A stretch of 64,000 nucleotides of DNA from Candidatus Yanofskybacteria bacterium (lineage in GTDB: Bacteria; Patescibacteriota; Minisyncoccia; 2-02-FULL-40-12; GWA2-44-9): assembly GCA_003514055.1 (NCBI GenBank), contig DOSG01000008.1, positions 45,895-109,894 of the forward strand. Reading direction: 5' to 3'. Below are positions 54,972-62,634 of this stretch, piece by piece. A program made the position numbers and the translations under genes. Within the stretch, counting starts at the first letter, position 1, and every line of letters starts with the position of its first letter. The notes under the pieces were generated by a model. The model ran no database searches. It was not told where the DNA came from and saw only the letters and a list, made by a program, of their open reading frames with translations.

Positions 54972-56255
54972 CTAATCGTATTTCTGTAAAAAACGAATCT
55001 TGGCTAGGTAGCCCTTTGTTTCTGGGAGTAACTTGCCAAGCCAATCACTGAAACCGCCGGCTATGGCGGCCTTCAACGAGCTATTAACTCGCGCCGGTGA
55101 GCCGTTGTATCCAGCTGCTAGATATTCTTCGAGTTTAGGGTCGTCAACTATTCTACTTCCATGGACTTTCATTAGGCCTGCTAAATTATAATCATACAAA
55201 AGCACAGCTGCCATCATAGAATTCAGATGGTTAGCCGCGCCTTTTTCAAAGTCACTAATTAGTCCGGCTTTGGAATATATTTTTGCTAGCTCTTTATAAG
55301 TTCTCGGCGTAAATTGCACCCAGCCACACGCCGCCGCATAATTACAATTATCAGCGTAAGCCCCAGCTCCATTAGCTCCTATTATAATCTTAACTCTTTC
55401 GGAAGTTTTAGTTGGATCAAGAGTAAATTCTCCTAAATCGCTGTGCTCAGTTATGGGAATTTTGATAAAGTAATCTTTTCTTAAAACCGATACATCGGAT
55501 ACCAAAATCTTGGGATAAGCCCTAGATAATACGCCCTTAGATTTTAACGTAGCATAGGCCTGATCAACCATATCTCTGACGTATTGGTTACCCAAGGCTA
55601 TCATCTCTTGAGTGTGGTAATCCTCACTATACGGAGCATAAGTTACATATTTTATGTTAACCTTATTCTCATATACGAAACTTTTTTTACCATTTTTCAA
55701 AGTCACCGGCTTCTTTATCTTCACATTCTCGGGCTCGGGCCATTTATTGAATAAGACCATGGCATTTGCCGGCTGAGTTACCTTATACTGAGTTGCCCAA
55801 TAATTCCAGCGTATGCCATTGGACCTCTCTACAACCTCTATCTGATAACCAAGTGGAGCAATTAAATCTCCTCCTCTTTTAATTATTTTCACAACCTCCA
55901 ATGCGCCAGAGATTTTATCCATGACTACCAAGGCGATTTCTCTTTCCGGATCTTTTAATGATTTATCAGATATTTTAATCTGACCACCATTGATTGAAAT
56001 TCTTTTCTCTGTGTAGGGAATATCTTTCGTGCCCACCTTGAGCTCAATATCTTTTAGCAACAAACGCGCCTCTGAAATTTTACTAGAAAAATTCCACGTA
56101 GAGGGAGTTGGCGACTGCTCGACGATCATGGTCGGCCCAATCTCTATATTGTTCTTCTTCAACGTTATCTTGGCTGAAACGTAAGTCCAAGTCAAAAACA
56201 GTGATACGACTATTACAATACCAAGTGCCCATTGGACTTTTTTCGTATTTATCAT
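54972..56255 (-). CDS. membrane-anchored lytic transglycosylase (SLT domain)
   Basis: GLMKV and AAGYNGSPARV motifs (GLMQ / AYNAG equivalents). Confidence 0.6.
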   Translation of the reverse strand: MINTKKVQWALGIVIVVSLFLTWTYVSAKITLKKNNIEIGPTMIVEQSPTPSTWNFSSKISEARLLLKDIELKVGTKDIPYTEKRISINGGQIKISDKSLKDPEREIALVVMDKISGALEVVKIIKRGGDLIAPLGYQIEVVERSNGIRWNYWATQYKVTQPANAMVLFNKWPEPENVKIKKPVTLKNGKKSFVYENKVNIKYVTYAPYSEDYHTQEMIALGNQYVRDMVDQAYATLKSKGVLSRAYPKILVSDVSVLRKDYFIKIPITEHSDLGEFTLDPTKTSERVKIIIGANGAGAYADNCNYAAACGWVQFTPRTYKELAKIYSKAGLISDFEKGAANHLNSMMAAVLLYDYNLAGLMKVHGSRIVDDPKLEEYLAAGYNGSPARVNSSLKAAIAGGFSDWLGKLLPETKGYLAKIRFLQKYD

Positions 56256-57571
56256 AGATTTGGCTCTATCTCAGCAGCCTTTCTAATAACCATGCTTGAA
56301 TACGAATAGCAAATTGCCTGAGTACAATTTGGATTGCCACTCACATAAGCCTTTGCTGCTCTTATCTCTCCTGCTTGAGTTTTACTATTGGCGCCGCCTG
56401 CGGCTAACTTGATAGCCGAGGCCATAAATGCATCTTCGATATTCCAAGGATTAGGAGGATTATGGCCCGTTAAAGCGGCTACCTTATCGACATATCCCAG
56501 CCAAGTAGTTGGCAAAAATTGAGCTGGCCCTAGAGCTCCTCCGCAACCATAATTTGGCTCTCTGGATACTTTGACCGTATCCGGATTCATACCTAGGCTA
56601 TTTACTATCTTCATGAAAGCTGCCTTTTCCTGTTCTGCTCGCTGAGGCTTGCCCAAACGCTTATAGCAACCATACATATCGTCAATCCATGTTCCCGTGC
56701 CAACATTTTTACCAAGCCTTGATTCTATCTCTAGAATAGCTATTAGAAAAGCCGGCCTGATACCTGCCGCAATGGCGGCCAATTGTCCAAATTTAATGGC
56801 ATCCTCCACAGAAACACCGTTCTGCTCTAGATAGGTGATCTGTTCTTTAATCATCTGGATATCTTTCTGGGACTTTTTAACCAACTCTTGGAATTTTGAC
56901 TCCTGGCCCTTCGTATCTCGCAATATTTTGTCTTTAGTGCTCTTATTCTGCACCAGATTTTTTTTCTCTAATTCTTGGATTGTCTTAAGCTGAAGCATCT
57001 CATCTTTTTTGTCTTCAAGGTCAATCTTTTTAATTTCCAAGCCAGATTTGATAGATCTTATGCTATCAATCGTATTTTGAAGATTTTCCTGAGTAGTTCT
57101 AACATTATTCAGCTCATTAAAAAAATCTGACAAAGCCCCATTTTTAAGAAGTATTTCGGTTAGAGTTTTCTGATCGTTCTCATAGGCAATCTTTAGATAT
57201 TGAACCAAGGCATTCTTATGTTTGCCTATATCGTCAAGAGCATTAGATATTTGTATCTCAGTATCACCTATCTGTAGGGCGGCCTTATTGATCTGAAGCT
57301 CTATGCTTCGTATTTCTAATTGAATTTGGTTCATCTGGCCATTTAATCTTGAGATCTCGCCCTGCAAGGTAGCTGACTTAGAACGATTTTGATCTATTTG
57401 CTTCTGATATTCATTAATTTGGGCTTGGATTTCGTCTATCTGCTTTTGTTTCAGGTTTATATCGTCTTGTGTGCTGGCGGCAAAAACGCCATTGGCAAAA
57501 AACATGGCAGTAATCGCGATTAAAATGACTAGTCCCAACCTTAACTTGTTGTGATCGCGTAGTCTTATCAT
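56252..57571 (-). CDS. coiled-coil protein with a C-terminal MltB-like (SLT_2) lytic transglycosylase domain
   Basis: About 200 aa of heptad-rich N-terminus; ILEIESRLG and GPAQFLPTTW motifs. Confidence 0.6.
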   Translation of the reverse strand: MIRLRDHNKLRLGLVILIAITAMFFANGVFAASTQDDINLKQKQIDEIQAQINEYQKQIDQNRSKSATLQGEISRLNGQMNQIQLEIRSIELQINKAALQIGDTEIQISNALDDIGKHKNALVQYLKIAYENDQKTLTEILLKNGALSDFFNELNNVRTTQENLQNTIDSIRSIKSGLEIKKIDLEDKKDEMLQLKTIQELEKKNLVQNKSTKDKILRDTKGQESKFQELVKKSQKDIQMIKEQITYLEQNGVSVEDAIKFGQLAAIAAGIRPAFLIAILEIESRLGKNVGTGTWIDDMYGCYKRLGKPQRAEQEKAAFMKIVNSLGMNPDTVKVSREPNYGCGGALGPAQFLPTTWLGYVDKVAALTGHNPPNPWNIEDAFMASAIKLAAGGANSKTQAGEIRAAKAYVSGNPNCTQAICYSYSSMVIRKAAEIEPNL

Positions 57572-57680
57572 CTTAGTCCATTATAGCATAATTTAAACAC
57601 TGCCCATGCCCAACACGCTCAAAACTAATAAGTGGATATTCTGCCTGACTTGAGACGATAAATCCTATATACTAATATTA

Positions 57681-59588
57681 ATGATCAAAAAGATATCATT
57701 ATTTATTCTCGCCTTTACGGTCGGCTTTGGATTATTTACATCTTCAGCTAAAGCAGAAGAATGTCCAGCAAGTGGAAATTATGCAGACAAGCTAAGAGGC
57801 GCCATGGATGCCATTCTAAAAGCAAATCCGAGTCTTGCCAATTCAACCAATACAGAAGAAAATAGTTTCGACTTCATAAGCTTGGTAGCAAAAAAGCCGC
57901 CGACGGGATTCAATGTAACAGATCAGGTCTTAAATGGAAACGGCAATCCTAATAGTGGAGATCTATTAGCAATATGGAAAAAGGGGGATGCTAAGATGGA
58001 GCGCTACGACGTGATAGCGGCCGTTGGTGCGGGAGATAGAACGATAGAATCCGCAGTAACCACTCAATTCGTCGGCTTAATACCTCTTAATTGTACAAGT
58101 AGCGGAGGAGGCAAGGAATGTAGTTGCGGTACCTCCGAACAAAATGCATCCAGACAGTGTGCTGTTGATGTTTATCAGGCTGGCGCTAGAGCAAAAGATC
58201 CAATTGCCATCGGAGCAGAATGCCGCAGTGCCGTCTGGTTCCAAAGAAATACCAATATAGCATTGTCCTGTTCGTCAGACTTTATATTTAGAGGGACACC
58301 CGCAAATCAGTGGAAGACATGGAGCGAAAACCAAATTGAGAAAGTCGTTAGGGCCTGTGATGGAGACAACGTGGCAAACGCCGATAAGATATTAGCAGCC
58401 CTTGAGGTAGTCTGGAGTTCTTGTTTGCCCGATAGAAAAGGAATTAGCTGTGTCTGCCAAACAGCAGAAGATGGAGAAAATAATTCATGCGCGATGTTTA
58501 TGGGAGAGATAGGCCCACCCACGATTACCTCTTTCACTCCGACAAAGGCAACGATCGGTACAGAAGTGTACATCGAAGGCACTCACCTGCCAGACAAGAT
58601 TGAGCTTCAGTCTTCCTCGCAAAAATACACCCTCGCTAGCCACGTTAATTCGACTTTCACGGGAACGACATTTACAGTTGATCCATCAGTAGAAGATGGA
58701 TCATACACTCTTTCAGTAGTTGGAATAAATGGAAGCGCTACAGCCAATCAAAAGCTGGTCATCACAGCTGGCGGCCCAGACTTCGCCGGCCGCACATTGC
58801 CAGCCACTCCGACTGGATATCCAGAAATGGGTGGCCTGTTGGGCATGATATTAACATGGTCTATTAGATTATTAGGCATATCCATATTTATTGTGGTCTT
58901 CTTAGCTGGCGCAGAATGGTTCTTTAATCAAGGCAATCCATCGATGTGGACTGGAGTTAAGACTAAGATACAAAATGCCATCATCGGAGCCATTATGCTT
59001 TTATCAGCCTATCTTATTCTATACACTATCAATCCCGACTTAGTTCAAGGCACATTCGAACTGCCAGGCATAACAGGAGGGAATACGGCACCAACAGCAA
59101 GTCCAAGCACTAGCCCATCGACACCGCCTACACCAACATCGTCCGGAACTCCACCCGAAGCTTGCAAACAAAATGTAGGCGGGACAGCATCTTCTGGCTG
59201 TACTCAAGCAACCTGCGTCGACATATCTAACTACACCCCTACCCATGGCTGCGAAAGTAATGGTGGCAAATGTTACGCATCATCTCAGGCAGCCCAAAAG
59301 ATACAGACTCTCGTTTCACGATTCAATGCCCTGTCAGGTGGTAGTTGTTCTCTACGAATATCTTCGACAATCCAAGGCCCAGGCGGACCGAGTATATCTG
59401 GATGCCACAAGCCAGGATCTGCCAATGCTGGGACATGTGCCGACTTCAACGTATCTCCGCACGGTTCTTGTTATAAATTCTTCTACCAGGCAGCAAAAGA
59501 AGCTAGCGTGGTATCTTTTCTAGATGAATACGTGCCAGCATGTATTCCTGCCAATGCTACCGGAGGGAATATCCACGTAAATTTCTAA
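57681..59588 (+). CDS. large secreted Cys-rich surface protein with an IPT/TIG-like segment, an internal two-helix hydrophobic hairpin, a Pro/Thr/Ser linker and a second Cys-rich domain
   Basis: Signal peptide; about 30 Cys; ITSFTPTKATIGTEVYIEGTHL; helices LLGMILTWSIRLLGISIFIVVFLAG and AIIGAIMLLSAYLILYTI; APTASPSTSPSTPPTPTSSGTPP linker. Confidence 0.55.
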   Translation: MIKKISLFILAFTVGFGLFTSSAKAEECPASGNYADKLRGAMDAILKANPSLANSTNTEENSFDFISLVAKKPPTGFNVTDQVLNGNGNPNSGDLLAIWKKGDAKMERYDVIAAVGAGDRTIESAVTTQFVGLIPLNCTSSGGGKECSCGTSEQNASRQCAVDVYQAGARAKDPIAIGAECRSAVWFQRNTNIALSCSSDFIFRGTPANQWKTWSENQIEKVVRACDGDNVANADKILAALEVVWSSCLPDRKGISCVCQTAEDGENNSCAMFMGEIGPPTITSFTPTKATIGTEVYIEGTHLPDKIELQSSSQKYTLASHVNSTFTGTTFTVDPSVEDGSYTLSVVGINGSATANQKLVITAGGPDFAGRTLPATPTGYPEMGGLLGMILTWSIRLLGISIFIVVFLAGAEWFFNQGNPSMWTGVKTKIQNAIIGAIMLLSAYLILYTINPDLVQGTFELPGITGGNTAPTASPSTSPSTPPTPTSSGTPPEACKQNVGGTASSGCTQATCVDISNYTPTHGCESNGGKCYASSQAAQKIQTLVSRFNALSGGSCSLRISSTIQGPGGPSISGCHKPGSANAGTCADFNVSPHGSCYKFFYQAAKEASVVSFLDEYVPACIPANATGGNIHVNF

Positions 59589-59618
59589 TAGATTACACTT
59601 TTAGAATAATCAGTACCT

Positions 59619-60092
59619 ATGGGATACGCGGCCATTATATTAGTCATAGCCACTATAATATTAGGAACCTACGCTGGTCCTGGCCTTTCCAATACACTTA
59701 AAGATGGATTAATAAGCAATATTGGCGAGGGATTCAAAGATCTGATACCGAAGAGTGAAAATGAGATAATAATAGAAAGTATAAATTCGACCAGCCGAAC
59801 CTTGGAAGATTTCTTTAATAATTCTGCGAATCAAATTCTTTCGGCGAAAGACGTATCAACTGAAGATAAAGAGGCGCTCAAAAAATCCATCCAGGCTTTC
59901 GTCGAATCAAAAGACCTAAATGCGAAGATAGAGACAAAACTCAAAAGCGAAGAAAGCCAAGGATTAGTCAGCAAAATAGTTGATAAAGTAATTGGAATCG
60001 GCACATCGAGTATCAATAACGCGACAACGAACAATAACCCGCCAGAGACTACCTACATACCGCCTCAGTGTAAAATGGTCTGCGATCCATAA
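59619..60092 (+). CDS. small secreted hypothetical protein
   Basis: N-terminal TM/signal; C-terminal CKMVC. Confidence 0.4.
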   Translation: MGYAAIILVIATIILGTYAGPGLSNTLKDGLISNIGEGFKDLIPKSENEIIIESINSTSRTLEDFFNNSANQILSAKDVSTEDKEALKKSIQAFVESKDLNAKIETKLKSEESQGLVSKIVDKVIGIGTSSINNATTNNNPPETTYIPPQCKMVCDP

Positions 60093-60103
60093 ATTGAAAT
60101 AAA

Positions 60104-60147
60104 GCTTGGGCCTTCGCTTCGATCAATTGGCTCGGCACAAACGAAGC
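60104..60147. repeat. direct repeat DR1 flanking the 29-aa-repeat gene
   Basis: GCTTGGGCCTTCGCTTCGATCAATTGGCTCGGCACAAACGAAGC; about 80% identical to 61108-61151. Confidence 0.55.
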
Positions 60148-60180
60148 ATAAGAAAAAGCCGAGCGTTGCTCGGCTATATA

Positions 60181-61065
60181 TTACTGACTCCTCCTCAACA
60201 AGGCCTGCTGAGTCTTGGTCAGGTTCTTCACGTCGTAAAGAGCGTAATTTGAATATTCTGCATTCTTGGCTACTGCCTTAACCAGAACATCTTTCTGAAC
60301 TCTGGTTAGACCCTTCATGTCGCGAAGAGTACGATATGCATATCTTACTTCTTTGGTCACTACTTTAATTAAGACATCTTTCTGAATTCTGGTCAGGCCG
60401 CCTACCTCGTAAAGAACGTCATGCGCATGTTCTGGGTTTTTGGCCAAACCCCTGACTAGAATGCCTTTCTGAGTGTTGGTCAGGTTCTTCACGTCACGAA
60501 GAACGTCAGATGCATATTCTGCACTCTTGGCCACGCCCTCAATCAAGATATCTTTTTGAGTCTCGGGCAGATCGCCTACCTCGCAAAGGACAGAAGACGC
60601 ATCGGTCACGTCTTCAGCTACACGAGGAATACAGATATCCATGAAGGCCGATCTCCAGAGCTCGGGAGCTCTTATGAGAATGTAACTGGCATCGTCTGGC
60701 TGAAGAGATCGTTTGAGCATTTTGCTCCAAGTATCAAAAAGAGTTTCGGGGGATTCAAGATGAATGGCAATTTCAGGTGGGAATTGAGTTTTATCCCAAA
60801 AATCCCTGTTTTCGAATTGAGGCAAACTTTCTGTCACTGGGCCATAGAAAGCATCAATAGCACTGTGCCCCAATATGTCGTTATGCATCGTACCTCGTAG
60901 AGTCTCTCTCCCATGAGGAGAAAATACATCTTTGTCCGTCAGAAAGTAGATATTCCCTTTAATATCCTTCTTCCAAGAGATGAAGTCGCACATGACACGC
61001 TTCCTTTCAAGAGAACTGAGGTGAATATACCACGCCCAAGCGGCATATGTCAAGTAGAGCATCAT
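60181..61065 (-). CDS. protein with 4.5 tandem 29-aa repeats (DVLxDVKxLTxxQKDxLxxxxAKNxEYAx) after a roughly 150-aa N-terminal domain
   Basis: Repeats visible by eye in the ORF translation; no known family assigned. Confidence 0.5.
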   Translation of the reverse strand: MMLYLTYAAWAWYIHLSSLERKRVMCDFISWKKDIKGNIYFLTDKDVFSPHGRETLRGTMHNDILGHSAIDAFYGPVTESLPQFENRDFWDKTQFPPEIAIHLESPETLFDTWSKMLKRSLQPDDASYILIRAPELWRSAFMDICIPRVAEDVTDASSVLCEVGDLPETQKDILIEGVAKSAEYASDVLRDVKNLTNTQKGILVRGLAKNPEHAHDVLYEVGGLTRIQKDVLIKVVTKEVRYAYRTLRDMKGLTRVQKDVLVKAVAKNAEYSNYALYDVKNLTKTQQALLRRSQ

Positions 61066-61107
61066 GTCTCAACGGCTCGAAAAAAACCCATCTAGCAAAA
61101 AGTCTAG

Positions 61108-61151
61108 GCTTGGGCCTTCGCTTCGATCAGTTAGCTCAATTCAAGCGAAGC
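61108..61151. repeat. direct repeat DR2
   Basis: GCTTGGGCCTTCGCTTCGATCAGTTAGCTCAATTCAAGCGAAGC. Confidence 0.55.
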
Positions 61152-61251
61152 TCGGCTAGTTTTCTCATCATTCACAGACAAGTCATGTATTAGAGGGTAG
61201 GTAGATAAAGAATCCAAAAAGATAGGTCGAGGGCGATACAATCACTAAGAA

Positions 61252-61280
61252 AGAAGGCCTCCGCTTTGCGGAGGCCTTCT
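61252..61280 (-). terminator. terminator downstream of the macB-like operon
   Basis: AGAAGGCCTCCGC-TTT-GCGGAGGCCTTCT. Confidence 0.6.
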
Positions 61281-61392
61281 TTAAATAATAGTGCGAGGGT
61301 TACCTGTCTTTTTGGTTGTATTCTTTACTATCTATCCCGAGAATACATGATACAGGCGAGGACACGATGAGAAAACTAGCTGAGCGAAGCGG

Positions 61393-62634
61393 CTATTCAT
61401 ATCTCAACGCCTCAATCGGACTCTTTTGCGCCGCTTTTCGTGCCGGGAATATGCCGAAAATAAATCCTATCGCACTAGAAACGAATACTCCCAAGAACGC
61501 TCCAAGATAAGAAAAAGCAAATGGGAAGTTAGTCGTTGTCAGATGATTGATAGAGAAGGTGGCCGCATAAGCCAACGCTGTCCCTAAAAATATTCCAACC
61601 AATCCCCCGCTGACCGTAAATATGATTGCCTCGACTAAGAATTGAGTAAGAATATCTTTGTTGGTAGCTCCTAGAGCTTTTCTCAGACCTATTTCCCTAG
61701 TTCTTTCGGTAACAGAGACGAACATAATATTCATAATTCCGATACCTCCTACAACCAATGAAATCGCCGCAACAGAGCTCAATAGTATAGTGAGAATGTT
61801 CGTGATTAAGCTTACCGTGTCTACTAAATCGGCCTGGGTCTGTATAAAAAAGTCGTCCTTGTCTGGATCAGTAATATTATGATTCGATCTCAATACGGCC
61901 TTAATATCGCTGACCACATCTGGGATATTCTCAACCGTATCGGCAACTACAACTACGCGGTGATAATATTTTATACCCAAGACATACTGCTGAATAGTAG
62001 AAACTGGGGCCACGACTGCCTCGTCAAAGTTAACAAATACGGCTTGTCCTTTTTCCGCCATAAGACCAACAACTCTAAAATATTTATCTTTTATTTTTAT
62101 CTTCTCACCAATTGGATCAGCAAGGCCAAATAATTTTTCAGCCACCGTCGTCCCAATAACTATTACATCGCTTTTTTGAGCGACATCTTCGTCAGTTATA
62201 TTTGTTCCCCTTGCGATATCAACTTGGAATAAATCGAAAAGCCTCGGATCAGCGCCCAGAACAGTAGCGTTGTAAGTCTCAGAATCATAATTAACGCTCG
62301 CCGGAGTAAAGACCATTCCCGTAATCTTGGCTGCATTCGGGACATTACTCTTCTTGGTTAAATCCTTTAGATCCCTTTCTTTCAGCGAGTCGGCTAGCAA
62401 AGTGCTAGAACCATCAGAGAATCCTTCGGGCTGACGACCAGGTATGATGAAGACATTAGTTGAGCCCAATCCCTGGACCTGATCGACGATAAGTTTTTGA
62501 GCGCTCTGACCTATGGACATAACCAGAATGATAGAAGATATACCGATAACAATCCCGAGAATAGTTAAAGCTGAACGAGTCTTGTTCGTGGATAATCCTG
62601 TTATCGCCATTTGTACGGTATCTCTAATCTTCAT
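61393..62634 (-). CDS. ABC transporter permease, MacB/FtsX family
   Basis: N-terminal TM, large periplasmic domain, C-terminal FtsX-type 3-TM bundle. Confidence 0.85.
   Translation of the reverse strand: MKIRDTVQMAITGLSTNKTRSALTILGIVIGISSIILVMSIGQSAQKLIVDQVQGLGSTNVFIIPGRQPEGFSDGSSTLLADSLKERDLKDLTKKSNVPNAAKITGMVFTPASVNYDSETYNATVLGADPRLFDLFQVDIARGTNITDEDVAQKSDVIVIGTTVAEKLFGLADPIGEKIKIKDKYFRVVGLMAEKGQAVFVNFDEAVVAPVSTIQQYVLGIKYYHRVVVVADTVENIPDVVSDIKAVLRSNHNITDPDKDDFFIQTQADLVDTVSLITNILTILLSSVAAISLVVGGIGIMNIMFVSVTERTREIGLRKALGATNKDILTQFLVEAIIFTVSGGLVGIFLGTALAYAATFSINHLTTTNFPFAFSYLGAFLGVFVSSAIGFIFGIFPARKAAQKSPIEALRYE

What the first reader, a model, noticed from the sequence alone, without database searches (positions are those of the whole stretch)
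60104..61151. Tandem 29-aa-repeat protein flanked by imperfect 44-nt direct repeats
The 294-aa protein has 4.5 consecutive 29-residue repeats (DVLRDVKNLTNTQKGILVRGLAKNPEHAH / DVLYEVGGLTRIQKDVLIKVVTKEVRYAY / RTLRDMKGLTRVQKDVLVKAVAKNAEYSN ...). The gene is bracketed by GCTTGGGCCTTCGCTTCGATCA(A/G)TT(G/A)GCTC...CGAAGC repeats (60104-60147 and 61108-61151, about 80% identical). Repeat-flanked single genes encoding modular repeat proteins are typical of mobile or recombining accessory cassettes. The repeat architecture is reminiscent of nucleic-acid- or protein-binding solenoids (TALE/Bat-like or HEAT-like) often used in host interaction.
Basis: seen in the sequence. Interest (0 to 1): 0.5.

Follow-up and report, generated by a model that had tools for sequence, protein, structure and literature searches.

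The report
Repeat-tailed protein with uncatalogued Cys-His head
A self-contained gene in a tiny groundwater bacterium encodes a conserved, uncharacterised N-terminal domain that always starts Met-Cys, joined to a basic tail of helical repeats; the same head domain occurs with many different repeat tails in phages, related bacteria and at least one archaeon, and the short DNA repeats flanking the gene look like a one-off local duplication.

Summary
A minus-strand gene carries 4.5 tandem 29-aa repeats (87-nt period). It is bracketed by a 44-nt direct repeat: 37/44 identical, first 22 nt exact, and 51 nt long if a 22-nt indel is allowed.

- The real CDS is 60181-60993 (270 aa), not the 294-aa ORF. 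A near-consensus promoter lies inside the annotated 5' end and a terminator follows the stop, so the repeats bracket one complete transcription unit.
- AlphaFold (pLDDT 92) gives a small alpha/beta head (residues 1-96) and a two-helix HEAT/ARM-like solenoid. The repeat region is basic (pI 9.6). It is not TALE-like.
- The head defines a large family: 450 cluster representatives. Members sit in 46 IMG/VR viral loci, CPR bacteria and an archaeon. Met1-Cys2, Asp39, His43 and Glu61 are nearly invariant.
- The head matches nothing in Pfam, NCBIfam, PHROGs, PADLOC or PDB. Tails differ between members: two kinds of 29-aa repeat, 22-aa and 11-aa repeats, MORN and an HTH.
- Two 94%-identical alleles differ by exactly three repeats.
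- The flanking 22-mer occurs nowhere else I searched. No recombinase lies nearby and no empty site was found, so mobility is unproven.

Best reading: a phage-associated modular accessory protein with a constant, probably catalytic or metal-binding head and a swappable targeting tail.

The parts
60104..60147 (+). Direct repeat copy A. It lies 12 nt after the stop of the 157-aa gene and directly beyond the terminator of the repeat-protein gene. Homology to copy B resumes at 60170-60176 (TCGGCTA) after a 22-nt insertion.
60148..60175 (-). Intrinsic terminator of the repeat-protein gene: stem-loop AGCCGAGC-AAC-GCTCGGCT at 60175-60157, then TTTTTCTT. Its left arm is supplied by the 22-nt insertion that interrupts copy A.
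60181..60993 (-). Corrected CDS, 270 aa plus stop. The annotated 294-aa ORF runs on to 61065.
60184..60579 (-). Residues 139-270: 4.5 repeats of 29 aa. Subfamily consensus V-K-G-L-T-x-x-Q-K/R-D/N-I-L-V-K-G-V-A-K-D-A-x-Y-A-Y-x-T-L-x-D. Each unit is a helix-turn-helix. The region is basic (pI 9.6).
60574..60705 (-). Residues 97-140: helical linker. It contains one copy of the family-wide 'QxDDxxYIxxAPxxW' unit, which forms the tandem array in other members.
60706..60993 (-). Residues 1-96: conserved N-terminal alpha/beta head with near-invariant M1, C2, S6, W7, D39, G42, H43, E61, F65, P72.
61024..61053 (-). Sigma-70-type promoter TTGACA-18-TATATT (11/12 matches, extended TG). An AGGAAG ribosome-binding site lies just upstream of the ATG at 60993.
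61108..61158 (+). Direct repeat copy B: the 44-nt unit 61108-61151 plus the TCGGCTA extension. It lies upstream of the promoter and overlaps the left arm of the long hairpin.
61150..61385 (.). Imperfect long hairpin of about 236 nt. Outer arms are 20 nt and 95% complementary; the core is a bidirectional terminator at 61250-61282. It fills the space between copy B and the stop of the MacB/FtsX permease gene. It is an adjacent feature and may not belong to the gene unit.

Best explanation
The locus is a single-gene transcription unit with its own promoter, CDS and terminator, in a Candidatus Yanofskybacteria (CPR) genome. Its product has two parts. The constant N-terminal head of about 96 aa belongs to a large, uncatalogued family that is common in phage early and DNA-metabolism regions and is also scattered in CPR bacteria and at least one archaeon. 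The translation start is fixed at Met-Cys. Cys2, Asp39, His43 and Glu61 are nearly invariant and tend to be lost together. I infer that they form one functional site, most likely a thiol-based catalytic or metal-binding centre that needs the free N-terminal cysteine. The C-terminal part is a basic HEAT/ARM-like solenoid of 29-aa two-helix repeats. I infer that it acts as the targeting or docking module, binding a nucleic acid or an acidic protein surface. This module is exchangeable across the family and changes length by in-register recombination. The 44/51-nt direct repeats that bracket the unit are a real, locus-specific duplication. It most likely arose when the unit was inserted or rearranged at a synteny breakpoint. 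It is not a recurring mobile-element end. Shown here: the anatomy, family membership, conservation pattern, phage association, repeat-number polymorphism and uniqueness of the flanking repeat. Inferred: the catalytic or metal role of the head, the binding role of the tail and the origin of the duplication.
For: Transcription unit: promoter and terminator scan, start codon agreed by 11 homologues and by NCBI's 270-aa entry. Structure: AF2 pLDDT 92.4 and pTM 0.84, a small alpha/beta head followed by two-helix repeats. Family size: 450 representatives at E<=1e-3 and 175 at E<=1e-10 with the head profile, plus 143 further hits, all unnamed. Conservation in 306 members: C2 in 279 of 292 with an alignable N-terminus, H43 300, D39 285, E61 279, and 284 with no residue before M1. 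Co-loss: members lacking C2 keep H43, D39 and E61 in only 10, 8 and 6 of 13, against 277, 268 and 268 of 279 with C2. Phage association: 46 IMG/VR loci, whose neighbours are RuvB-like, DNA methylase, ERF, RecT, YqaJ, integrase and DnaB genes, with tandem paralogues in 7 loci. Other hosts: an archaeal locus and phage-like contigs. Swappable tails; a GerE HTH in P0059. Basic tail, pI 8.9-10.3, in all close homologues. A 3-repeat indel between 94%-identical alleles. Flanking repeat real but unique.
Confidence: 0.5

Rival explanations
1. Mobile gene cassette. The 22-nt identical core with diverged arms is an attL/attR-like pair left by site-specific integration of a small circular element carrying promoter, gene and terminator.
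For: The repeats bracket one complete transcription unit exactly. The core is identical and the 3' half is degenerate. The family is phage-borne. Homologues sit in different contexts. The gene lies where synteny with relatives ends.
Against: Only two copies exist in 64 kb, and there are none in the genome, metagenome or viral collections; the 16-mer viral hits do not extend. No integrase or transposase was found among the ORFs scanned across 50.1-63.9 kb. No flanking repeats surround homologues. No compositional anomaly. No empty site was found.
Confidence: 0.2
2. Programmable nucleic-acid-binding repeat protein of the TALE/Bat/PPR/PUF type, with one base read per 29-aa repeat.
For: A two-helix solenoid. 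Four conserved basic positions per repeat and a tail pI of 8.9-10.3. Variable positions 6, 7, 21, 25 and 28. One family member carries a GerE HTH instead of repeats.
Confidence: 0.12
3. Non-enzymatic adaptor. The head is a protein-interaction or ligand/metal-sensing module with no catalysis, and the protein acts as a scaffold or decoy, for example an anti-defence binder.
For: No catalytic family or fold match. Fusion to an HTH in P0059 resembles sensor-plus-output regulators. Phage early-region location and tandem paralogues fit binder or decoy families.
Against: A near-invariant Cys at position 2 with a fixed start and a co-conserved Asp/His/Glu set is more typical of a chemical site than of a pure interface.
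Confidence: 0.3
4. The flanking 44-mers are ordinary regulatory or terminator sequences duplicated by chance of function, with no bearing on the gene's history.
For: Copy A lies in a convergent intergenic terminator region, and copy B abuts a large terminator hairpin.
Against: Neither copy is itself a G+C-rich hairpin followed by a T-run. The weak stem predicted in copy B is broken in copy A. There are no Rfam hits and no other copies in the 64-kb window.
Confidence: 0.08

Closest known systems
HEAT/ARM-type alpha-solenoid scaffolds (e.g. PP2A A subunit, designed helical repeat proteins)
TALE / Bat modular DNA-binding repeats
   Same: A tandem two-helix repeat array with a basic surface and variable repeat number.
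   Different: 29-aa units rather than 33-35 aa. Units are 31-52% identical rather than near-identical. No RVD-like di-residue and no sequence or fold match.
Phage morons (autonomous promoter-gene-terminator units inserted between genes)
   Same: A single gene with its own near-consensus promoter and terminator, set between unrelated genes. The family is abundant in phages.
   Different: It sits in a chromosomal, non-prophage context between a pilin/SLT cluster and a MacB-type ABC transporter. It is bracketed by a 44/51-nt duplication, which morons typically lack (my own knowledge).
N-terminal-nucleophile (Ntn) hydrolases and class II amidotransferases
   Same: The protein starts Met-Cys with an essentially fixed start, so the mature protein probably begins with a free cysteine.
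GIY-YIG homing endonucleases (I-TevI type)
   Same: An N-terminal domain of about 90 aa with beta-beta-alpha-alpha-beta-alpha order of elements, variable C-terminal binding modules, phage-rich distribution, and a shared 'E-x3-F-W' string.
Staphylococcal protein A B domain / GA module (three-helix bundles)
   Same: A local motif 'LTxxQRNAxIxxxKDD' is shared. Five family members hit PF02216, the best at E 1.3e-8.
   Different: The window protein scores 12 bits against a cutoff of 27. The predicted architecture is a continuous solenoid, not separate bundles.

Membership tests
HEAT/ARM-like alpha-solenoid | Tandem units of two antiparallel helices stacked into a superhelix | tested here: met
   In the AF2 model (pLDDT 92.4), helices alternate in pairs from residue 99 to 269.
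HEAT/ARM-like alpha-solenoid | Sequence match to HEAT/ARM profiles, or a strong structural match | tested here: inconclusive
TALE/Bat DNA-binding repeats | 33-35-aa near-identical repeats that differ mainly at a hypervariable di-residue | tested here: not met
   29-aa units are 31-52% identical, with variation spread over many positions.
Integron-type gene cassette | A promoterless ORF with an attC recombination site and a nearby integron integrase, in an array of cassettes | tested here: not met
   The gene has its own promoter. No integrase was found in the Pfam scans of ORFs across 50.1-63.9 kb. The repeat occurs only twice.
Site-specific integrated element (attL/attR) | An identical core flanking the element | tested here: met
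   A 22-nt exact core at 60104-60125 and 61108-61129.
Site-specific integrated element (attL/attR) | A cognate recombinase, and an empty attB site or an attP elsewhere | tested here: not met
   No recombinase nearby. The 22-mer is absent from the genome, metagenome and viral collections. Relatives are too distant to show an empty site.
Ntn hydrolase | The nucleophile (Cys/Ser/Thr) is the first residue of the mature chain | tested here: inconclusive
   M1-C2 is present in 279 of 292 members, and 284 of 306 have no N-terminal extension. Removal of the Met is inferred, not shown.
Ntn hydrolase | A four-layer alpha-beta-beta-alpha sandwich fold | tested here: not met
GIY-YIG nuclease | Profile similarity and the GIY/YIG/Arg/Glu/Asn motif set | tested here: not met
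   hhalign probability 0.7% against the I-TevI catalytic domain. PF01541 was not among the families reported for 144 members.
DUF4116 repeat proteins | A match to PF13475 or a clear structural match | tested here: not met
   No such Pfam hit for this protein. Foldseek matches to BFVD are only E 0.05-0.5.
Known anti-phage defence proteins (PADLOC) | A match to any PADLOC model | tested here: not met
   0 families.
New 'MC-head' family (defined here) | An N-terminal domain of about 80 aa: MCxF(I/V)SW, then (F/Y)LTD, DNDxxGHGAI, ExxxF(W/S) and PxEI | tested here: met
   The window protein seeded the profile. It has all the conserved residues C2, S6, W7, D20, D39, G42, H43, E61, F65, W66 and P72.

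The most novel reading that the evidence does not exclude
The head is a previously undescribed small enzyme fold. Its mature N-terminal cysteine (a free 1,2-aminothiol), together with His43, Asp39 and Glu61, performs thiol chemistry such as hydrolysis, acyl transfer or ligation. Phages of ultra-small prokaryotes, and their CPR and archaeal hosts, retarget this one catalytic head by swapping and resizing tandem-repeat tails. That would make it a new class of modular, rapidly retargetable effector in virus-host conflict.
Probability: 0.25. Interest if true: 0.8.

Novelty: new variant of a known kind. Interest (0 to 1): 0.55.

Why it matters
The repeat tail alone is an ordinary alpha-solenoid. 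The head is the interesting part. It defines a family of at least 450 sequence clusters that none of the four family libraries searched (Pfam, NCBIfam, PHROGs, PADLOC) recognises. It has a strictly fixed Met-Cys start and a co-conserved Asp/His/Glu set. It sits in phage early regions next to methylases and recombinases, and in CPR bacteria and an archaeon. It is joined to at least six unrelated kinds of C-terminal module, some of which are expanding now (perfect 33-nt DNA repeats in L090; a 3-repeat indel between 94%-identical alleles). This 'constant head, swappable tail' pattern is typical of effectors in host-virus or cell-cell conflict. It offers a defined, testable target for biochemistry in organisms where few proteins have known roles. 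The flanking DNA repeats add little: they are a unique local duplication.

Tried and rejected
1. Tandem Repeats Finder on the gene found nothing because the copies are too diverged. The repeat finder recovered the 87-nt period.
2. tRNA and Rfam searches show the 44-mer is not a tRNA fragment or a known RNA. The low-score Rfam hits in the region are terminator noise.
3. The 22-mer gave 0 hits in genome contigs, metagenome contigs and viral contigs. A 16-mer gave 36 viral hits, none of which extends beyond the seed, so I take them as chance matches.
4. Empty-site search. The MacB permease found only relatives of 53% identity or less, with no synteny. Relatives of the 157-aa gene (34-37% identity) have different downstream genes.
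5. An apparent shared 427-aa neighbour between the window and L002 is a coincidence.
7. The GIY-YIG idea came from matching topology and an 'ExxxFW' string. hhalign gave probability 0.7%, so I rejected it.
9. No conserved neighbour gene was found across the 46 viral loci.
10. GC and GC3 show no clear foreign signature.
11. Literature searches found nothing on this family.

Full report
**1. Observation**

The region 59800-61500 was read directly. A minus-strand ORF at 60181-61065 (294 aa) contains the quoted repeats.

- The repeat finder reports four in-register DNA copies spaced exactly 87 nt apart at 60208-60559, 66-79% identical to the reference copy.
- At protein level there are five 'L(T/P)xxQ' units, four full and one half. 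The full units are 31-52% identical pairwise.
- The flanking direct repeat is real. The copies at 60104-60147 and 61108-61151 are 37/44 identical and the first 22 nt are exact.
- The 22-mer occurs twice in 64 kb even with 3 mismatches allowed, against 0.00 expected. blastn-short finds no weaker copies.
- A gapped alignment shows the homology resuming with TCGGCTA after a 22-nt insertion in copy A.

**2. Gene model**

All 11 homologues begin at residue 25 of the ORF with MC(D/E)F(I/V)SW. NCBI also holds a 270-aa version of the protein.

- A near-consensus promoter (TTGACA-18-TATATT, 11/12 matches, with TG) lies at 61053-61024 on the minus strand, inside the extra 24 codons.
- An intrinsic terminator lies at 60175-60157, directly after the stop.
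- The real unit is therefore promoter, CDS 60993-60181 (270 aa), then terminator.
- The two repeat copies lie immediately outside it. Copy B starts 54 nt upstream of the -35 box. Copy A follows directly after the terminator's T-run.
- The 22-nt insertion in copy A supplies the left arm of that terminator.

**3. Organism and neighbourhood**

The identical protein is named as a hypothetical protein of Candidatus Yanofskybacteria GW2011 genomes, which are CPR bacteria. All contigs carrying it have the same arrangement.

- Neighbours on one side are iPGM, MnmA, NUDIX, HlyIII, an SLT-domain protein, a 635-aa pilin-like protein and a 157-aa protein.
- Neighbours on the other side are a MacB/FtsX permease, an ABC ATPase and a partial barrel-sandwich-hybrid (BSH)/beta-barrel (HlyD-like) protein.
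- None of these scanned ORFs is a recombinase or transposase.
- The gene's GC is 0.450 and GC3 0.461, against a window mean of 0.416 ± 0.031. This is not clearly foreign.

**4. The protein**

No Pfam, NCBIfam, PHROG or PADLOC family and no PDB sequence matches it.

- AlphaFold2 with the 12-sequence alignment gives pLDDT 92.4 and pTM 0.84.
- The model has a small alpha/beta head: strands 5-9 and 59-62 with a two-residue bridge at 15-16, and helices 20-31, 43-50 and 73-96.
- Helix pairs then run uninterrupted from residue 99 to 269.
- The repeat region is basic in every close homologue (pI 8.9-10.3), while the head is acidic to near-neutral (pI 5.4-6.8).
- The unit consensus V-K-G-L-T-x-x-Q-K/R-D/N-I-L-V-K-G-V-A-K-D-A-x-Y-A-Y-x-T-L-x-D has four conserved basic positions.
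- Repeat number ranges from 1.5 to 5.5 among homologues.
- P0008 (186 aa) and P0264 (273 aa) are 94% identical and differ by exactly 87 aa, which is three units. In-register expansion or contraction therefore occurs between near-identical alleles.
- Alleles in the same 90%-identity cluster as the window protein all have 4.5 units.

**5. The head defines a large, uncatalogued family**

A profile of residues 1-112 searched against 1.84 billion cluster representatives finds 450 proteins at E<=1e-3 and 175 at E<=1e-10. Nearly all matches start at residue 1. A second search with a diverse 53-sequence alignment gives 143 hits. All are unnamed and only one carries a Pfam domain, the GerE HTH of P0059.

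| Residue | Present in (of 306 members) |
|---|---|
| C2 | 279 of the 292 with an alignable N-terminus |
| S6 | 297 |
| W7 | 286 |
| D39 | 285 |
| G42 | 295 |
| H43 | 300 |
| E61 | 279 |
| P72 | 294 |
| No residue before M1 | 284 |

- The 13 members without C2 keep H43, D39 and E61 in 10, 8 and 6 cases. The 279 members with C2 keep them in 277, 268 and 268 cases.
- Fisher tests give p = 7e-4, 3e-4 and 1e-6, uncorrected for phylogeny.
- No Pfam family covers the head in 144 members, and no PHROG does.
- A GIY-YIG lead, based on the same order of secondary-structure elements and an 'ExxxFW' string, was tested by hhalign and rejected at probability 0.7%.

**6. Distribution and tails**

The family occurs in 46 IMG/VR viral loci.

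- Neighbours there include RuvB-like ATPases, C5 and N6/N4 DNA methylases, ERF, RecT, YqaJ, integrases, DnaB and SSB.
- No neighbour is conserved across loci. Seven loci have a tandem paralogue at the next gene position, and one 111.7-kb contig holds several copies.
- It also occurs on phage-like contigs.
- One locus is archaeal by gene content, carrying proteasome, exosome, Rpb6, eIF2-alpha and Nop10 genes.

C-terminal modules differ widely between members:
- the window's 29-aa unit;
- a different 29-aa unit, 'QNDDLRYIIxYAPDEWKxKAWEQLLKQxPSN', one copy of which forms the window protein's linker at residues 97-125;
- 11-aa units such as 'PAWAEYEKIRQ' or 'DADYEAKRAPL', usually followed by a conserved 'FWxIF...NR...W(R/K)' tail;
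- 22-aa units in the archaeon;
- MORN repeats;
- a GerE HTH.

L090 has perfect 33-nt DNA tandem repeats, which indicates very recent expansion.

**7. The flanking repeats**

- They are absent from homologue loci and from the genome, metagenome and viral collections.
- They are not an Rfam family. They do not form a conserved hairpin in both copies.
- Relatives close enough to show an empty site were not available. The SLT, pilin and 157-aa gene order is conserved in L137 and L139, but the gene downstream of the 157-aa gene differs in each. The window gene therefore sits at a synteny breakpoint.
- Close homologues of the protein lie elsewhere: next to a SET-domain gene and HU in L001-L004, and next to def/fmt in L005.
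- The duplication is real, and it is consistent with a scar of insertion or rearrangement of a moron-like unit. None of the defining features of a mobile cassette beyond the repeat itself could be shown.

**8. Mechanism**

Shown here: an autonomous transcription unit; a two-module protein; a family-wide fixed Met-Cys start with co-conserved Asp/His/Glu; a phage-rich distribution; exchangeable and length-polymorphic tails; a basic solenoid in this subfamily.

Inferred, with rough probabilities:
- The head carries one functional site built from the N-terminal cysteine and H43, D39 and E61. I put thiol catalysis at about 0.3, metal or ligand binding without turnover at about 0.3, and another role at the remainder.
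- The solenoid docks the head onto a target, which is either a nucleic acid or an acidic protein.
- The family acts in virus-host or cell-cell conflict.

**9. Verdict**

The notable result is the uncatalogued head-domain family rather than the flanking repeats.

Noticed in passing
window 61150-61385: An imperfect long hairpin of about 236 nt lies between repeat copy B and the stop of the MacB/FtsX permease gene. Folding energy is -130.9 kcal/mol for the 311-nt stretch 61090-61400, z = -10.5 against shuffles. The outer 20-nt arms are 95% complementary and the core is a perfect 15-bp terminator stem at 61250-61282. It is single-copy in the window and matches no Rfam family. It could be a MITE-like foldback or an unusually long bidirectional terminator.
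   Followed up: partly
window 60994-61065: The deposited 294-aa gene model (e.g. UW46_C0001G0101) starts 24 codons too early, and the extension contains the gene's own -35/-10 promoter. NCBI holds both 294-aa and 270-aa versions.
   Followed up: yes
P0008 vs P0264 (no window coordinates): Two 94%-identical homologues differ by an exact 87-aa (three-repeat) in-register indel. This is direct evidence for repeat-number polymorphism in the subfamily.
   Followed up: yes
L090 8285-8383: A viral family member carries two perfect 33-nt tandem DNA repeats and one 82%-identical copy, encoding the 11-aa unit 'PAWAEYEKIEQ'. This indicates very recent array expansion.
   Followed up: no
L091-L136 (e.g. 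L092/L094 on IMGVR_UViG_3300035053_000267): Phage contigs often hold several paralogues of the head-domain family. Seven loci have one at the next gene position, and one 111.7-kb contig has copies about 24 kb apart plus a 90-aa head-only paralogue.
   Followed up: partly
window 56252-60092; L137, L139: A conserved cluster of an SLT-domain lytic transglycosylase, a long pilin-like protein with a hydrophobic segment, and a 145-157-aa protein ending 'PPQCKMVCD' is shared with distant relatives. Its function is unknown; it may be a secretion or competence surface module.
   Followed up: partly
P0059 (112 aa, ENA contig of 887 nt): One family member joins the head domain directly to a GerE/LuxR-type HTH (Pfam E 6.5e-11). 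This hints that the head can act as the input or effector half of a DNA-binding protein.
   Followed up: no
many viral members (L095, L099, L101, L104, L108, L113, L119, L128, L132): A second conserved element, a C-terminal tail 'FW(D/K)(I/L)F...NR...W(R/K)', follows the 11-aa repeat arrays in many viral members. It is absent from the window protein.
   Followed up: no
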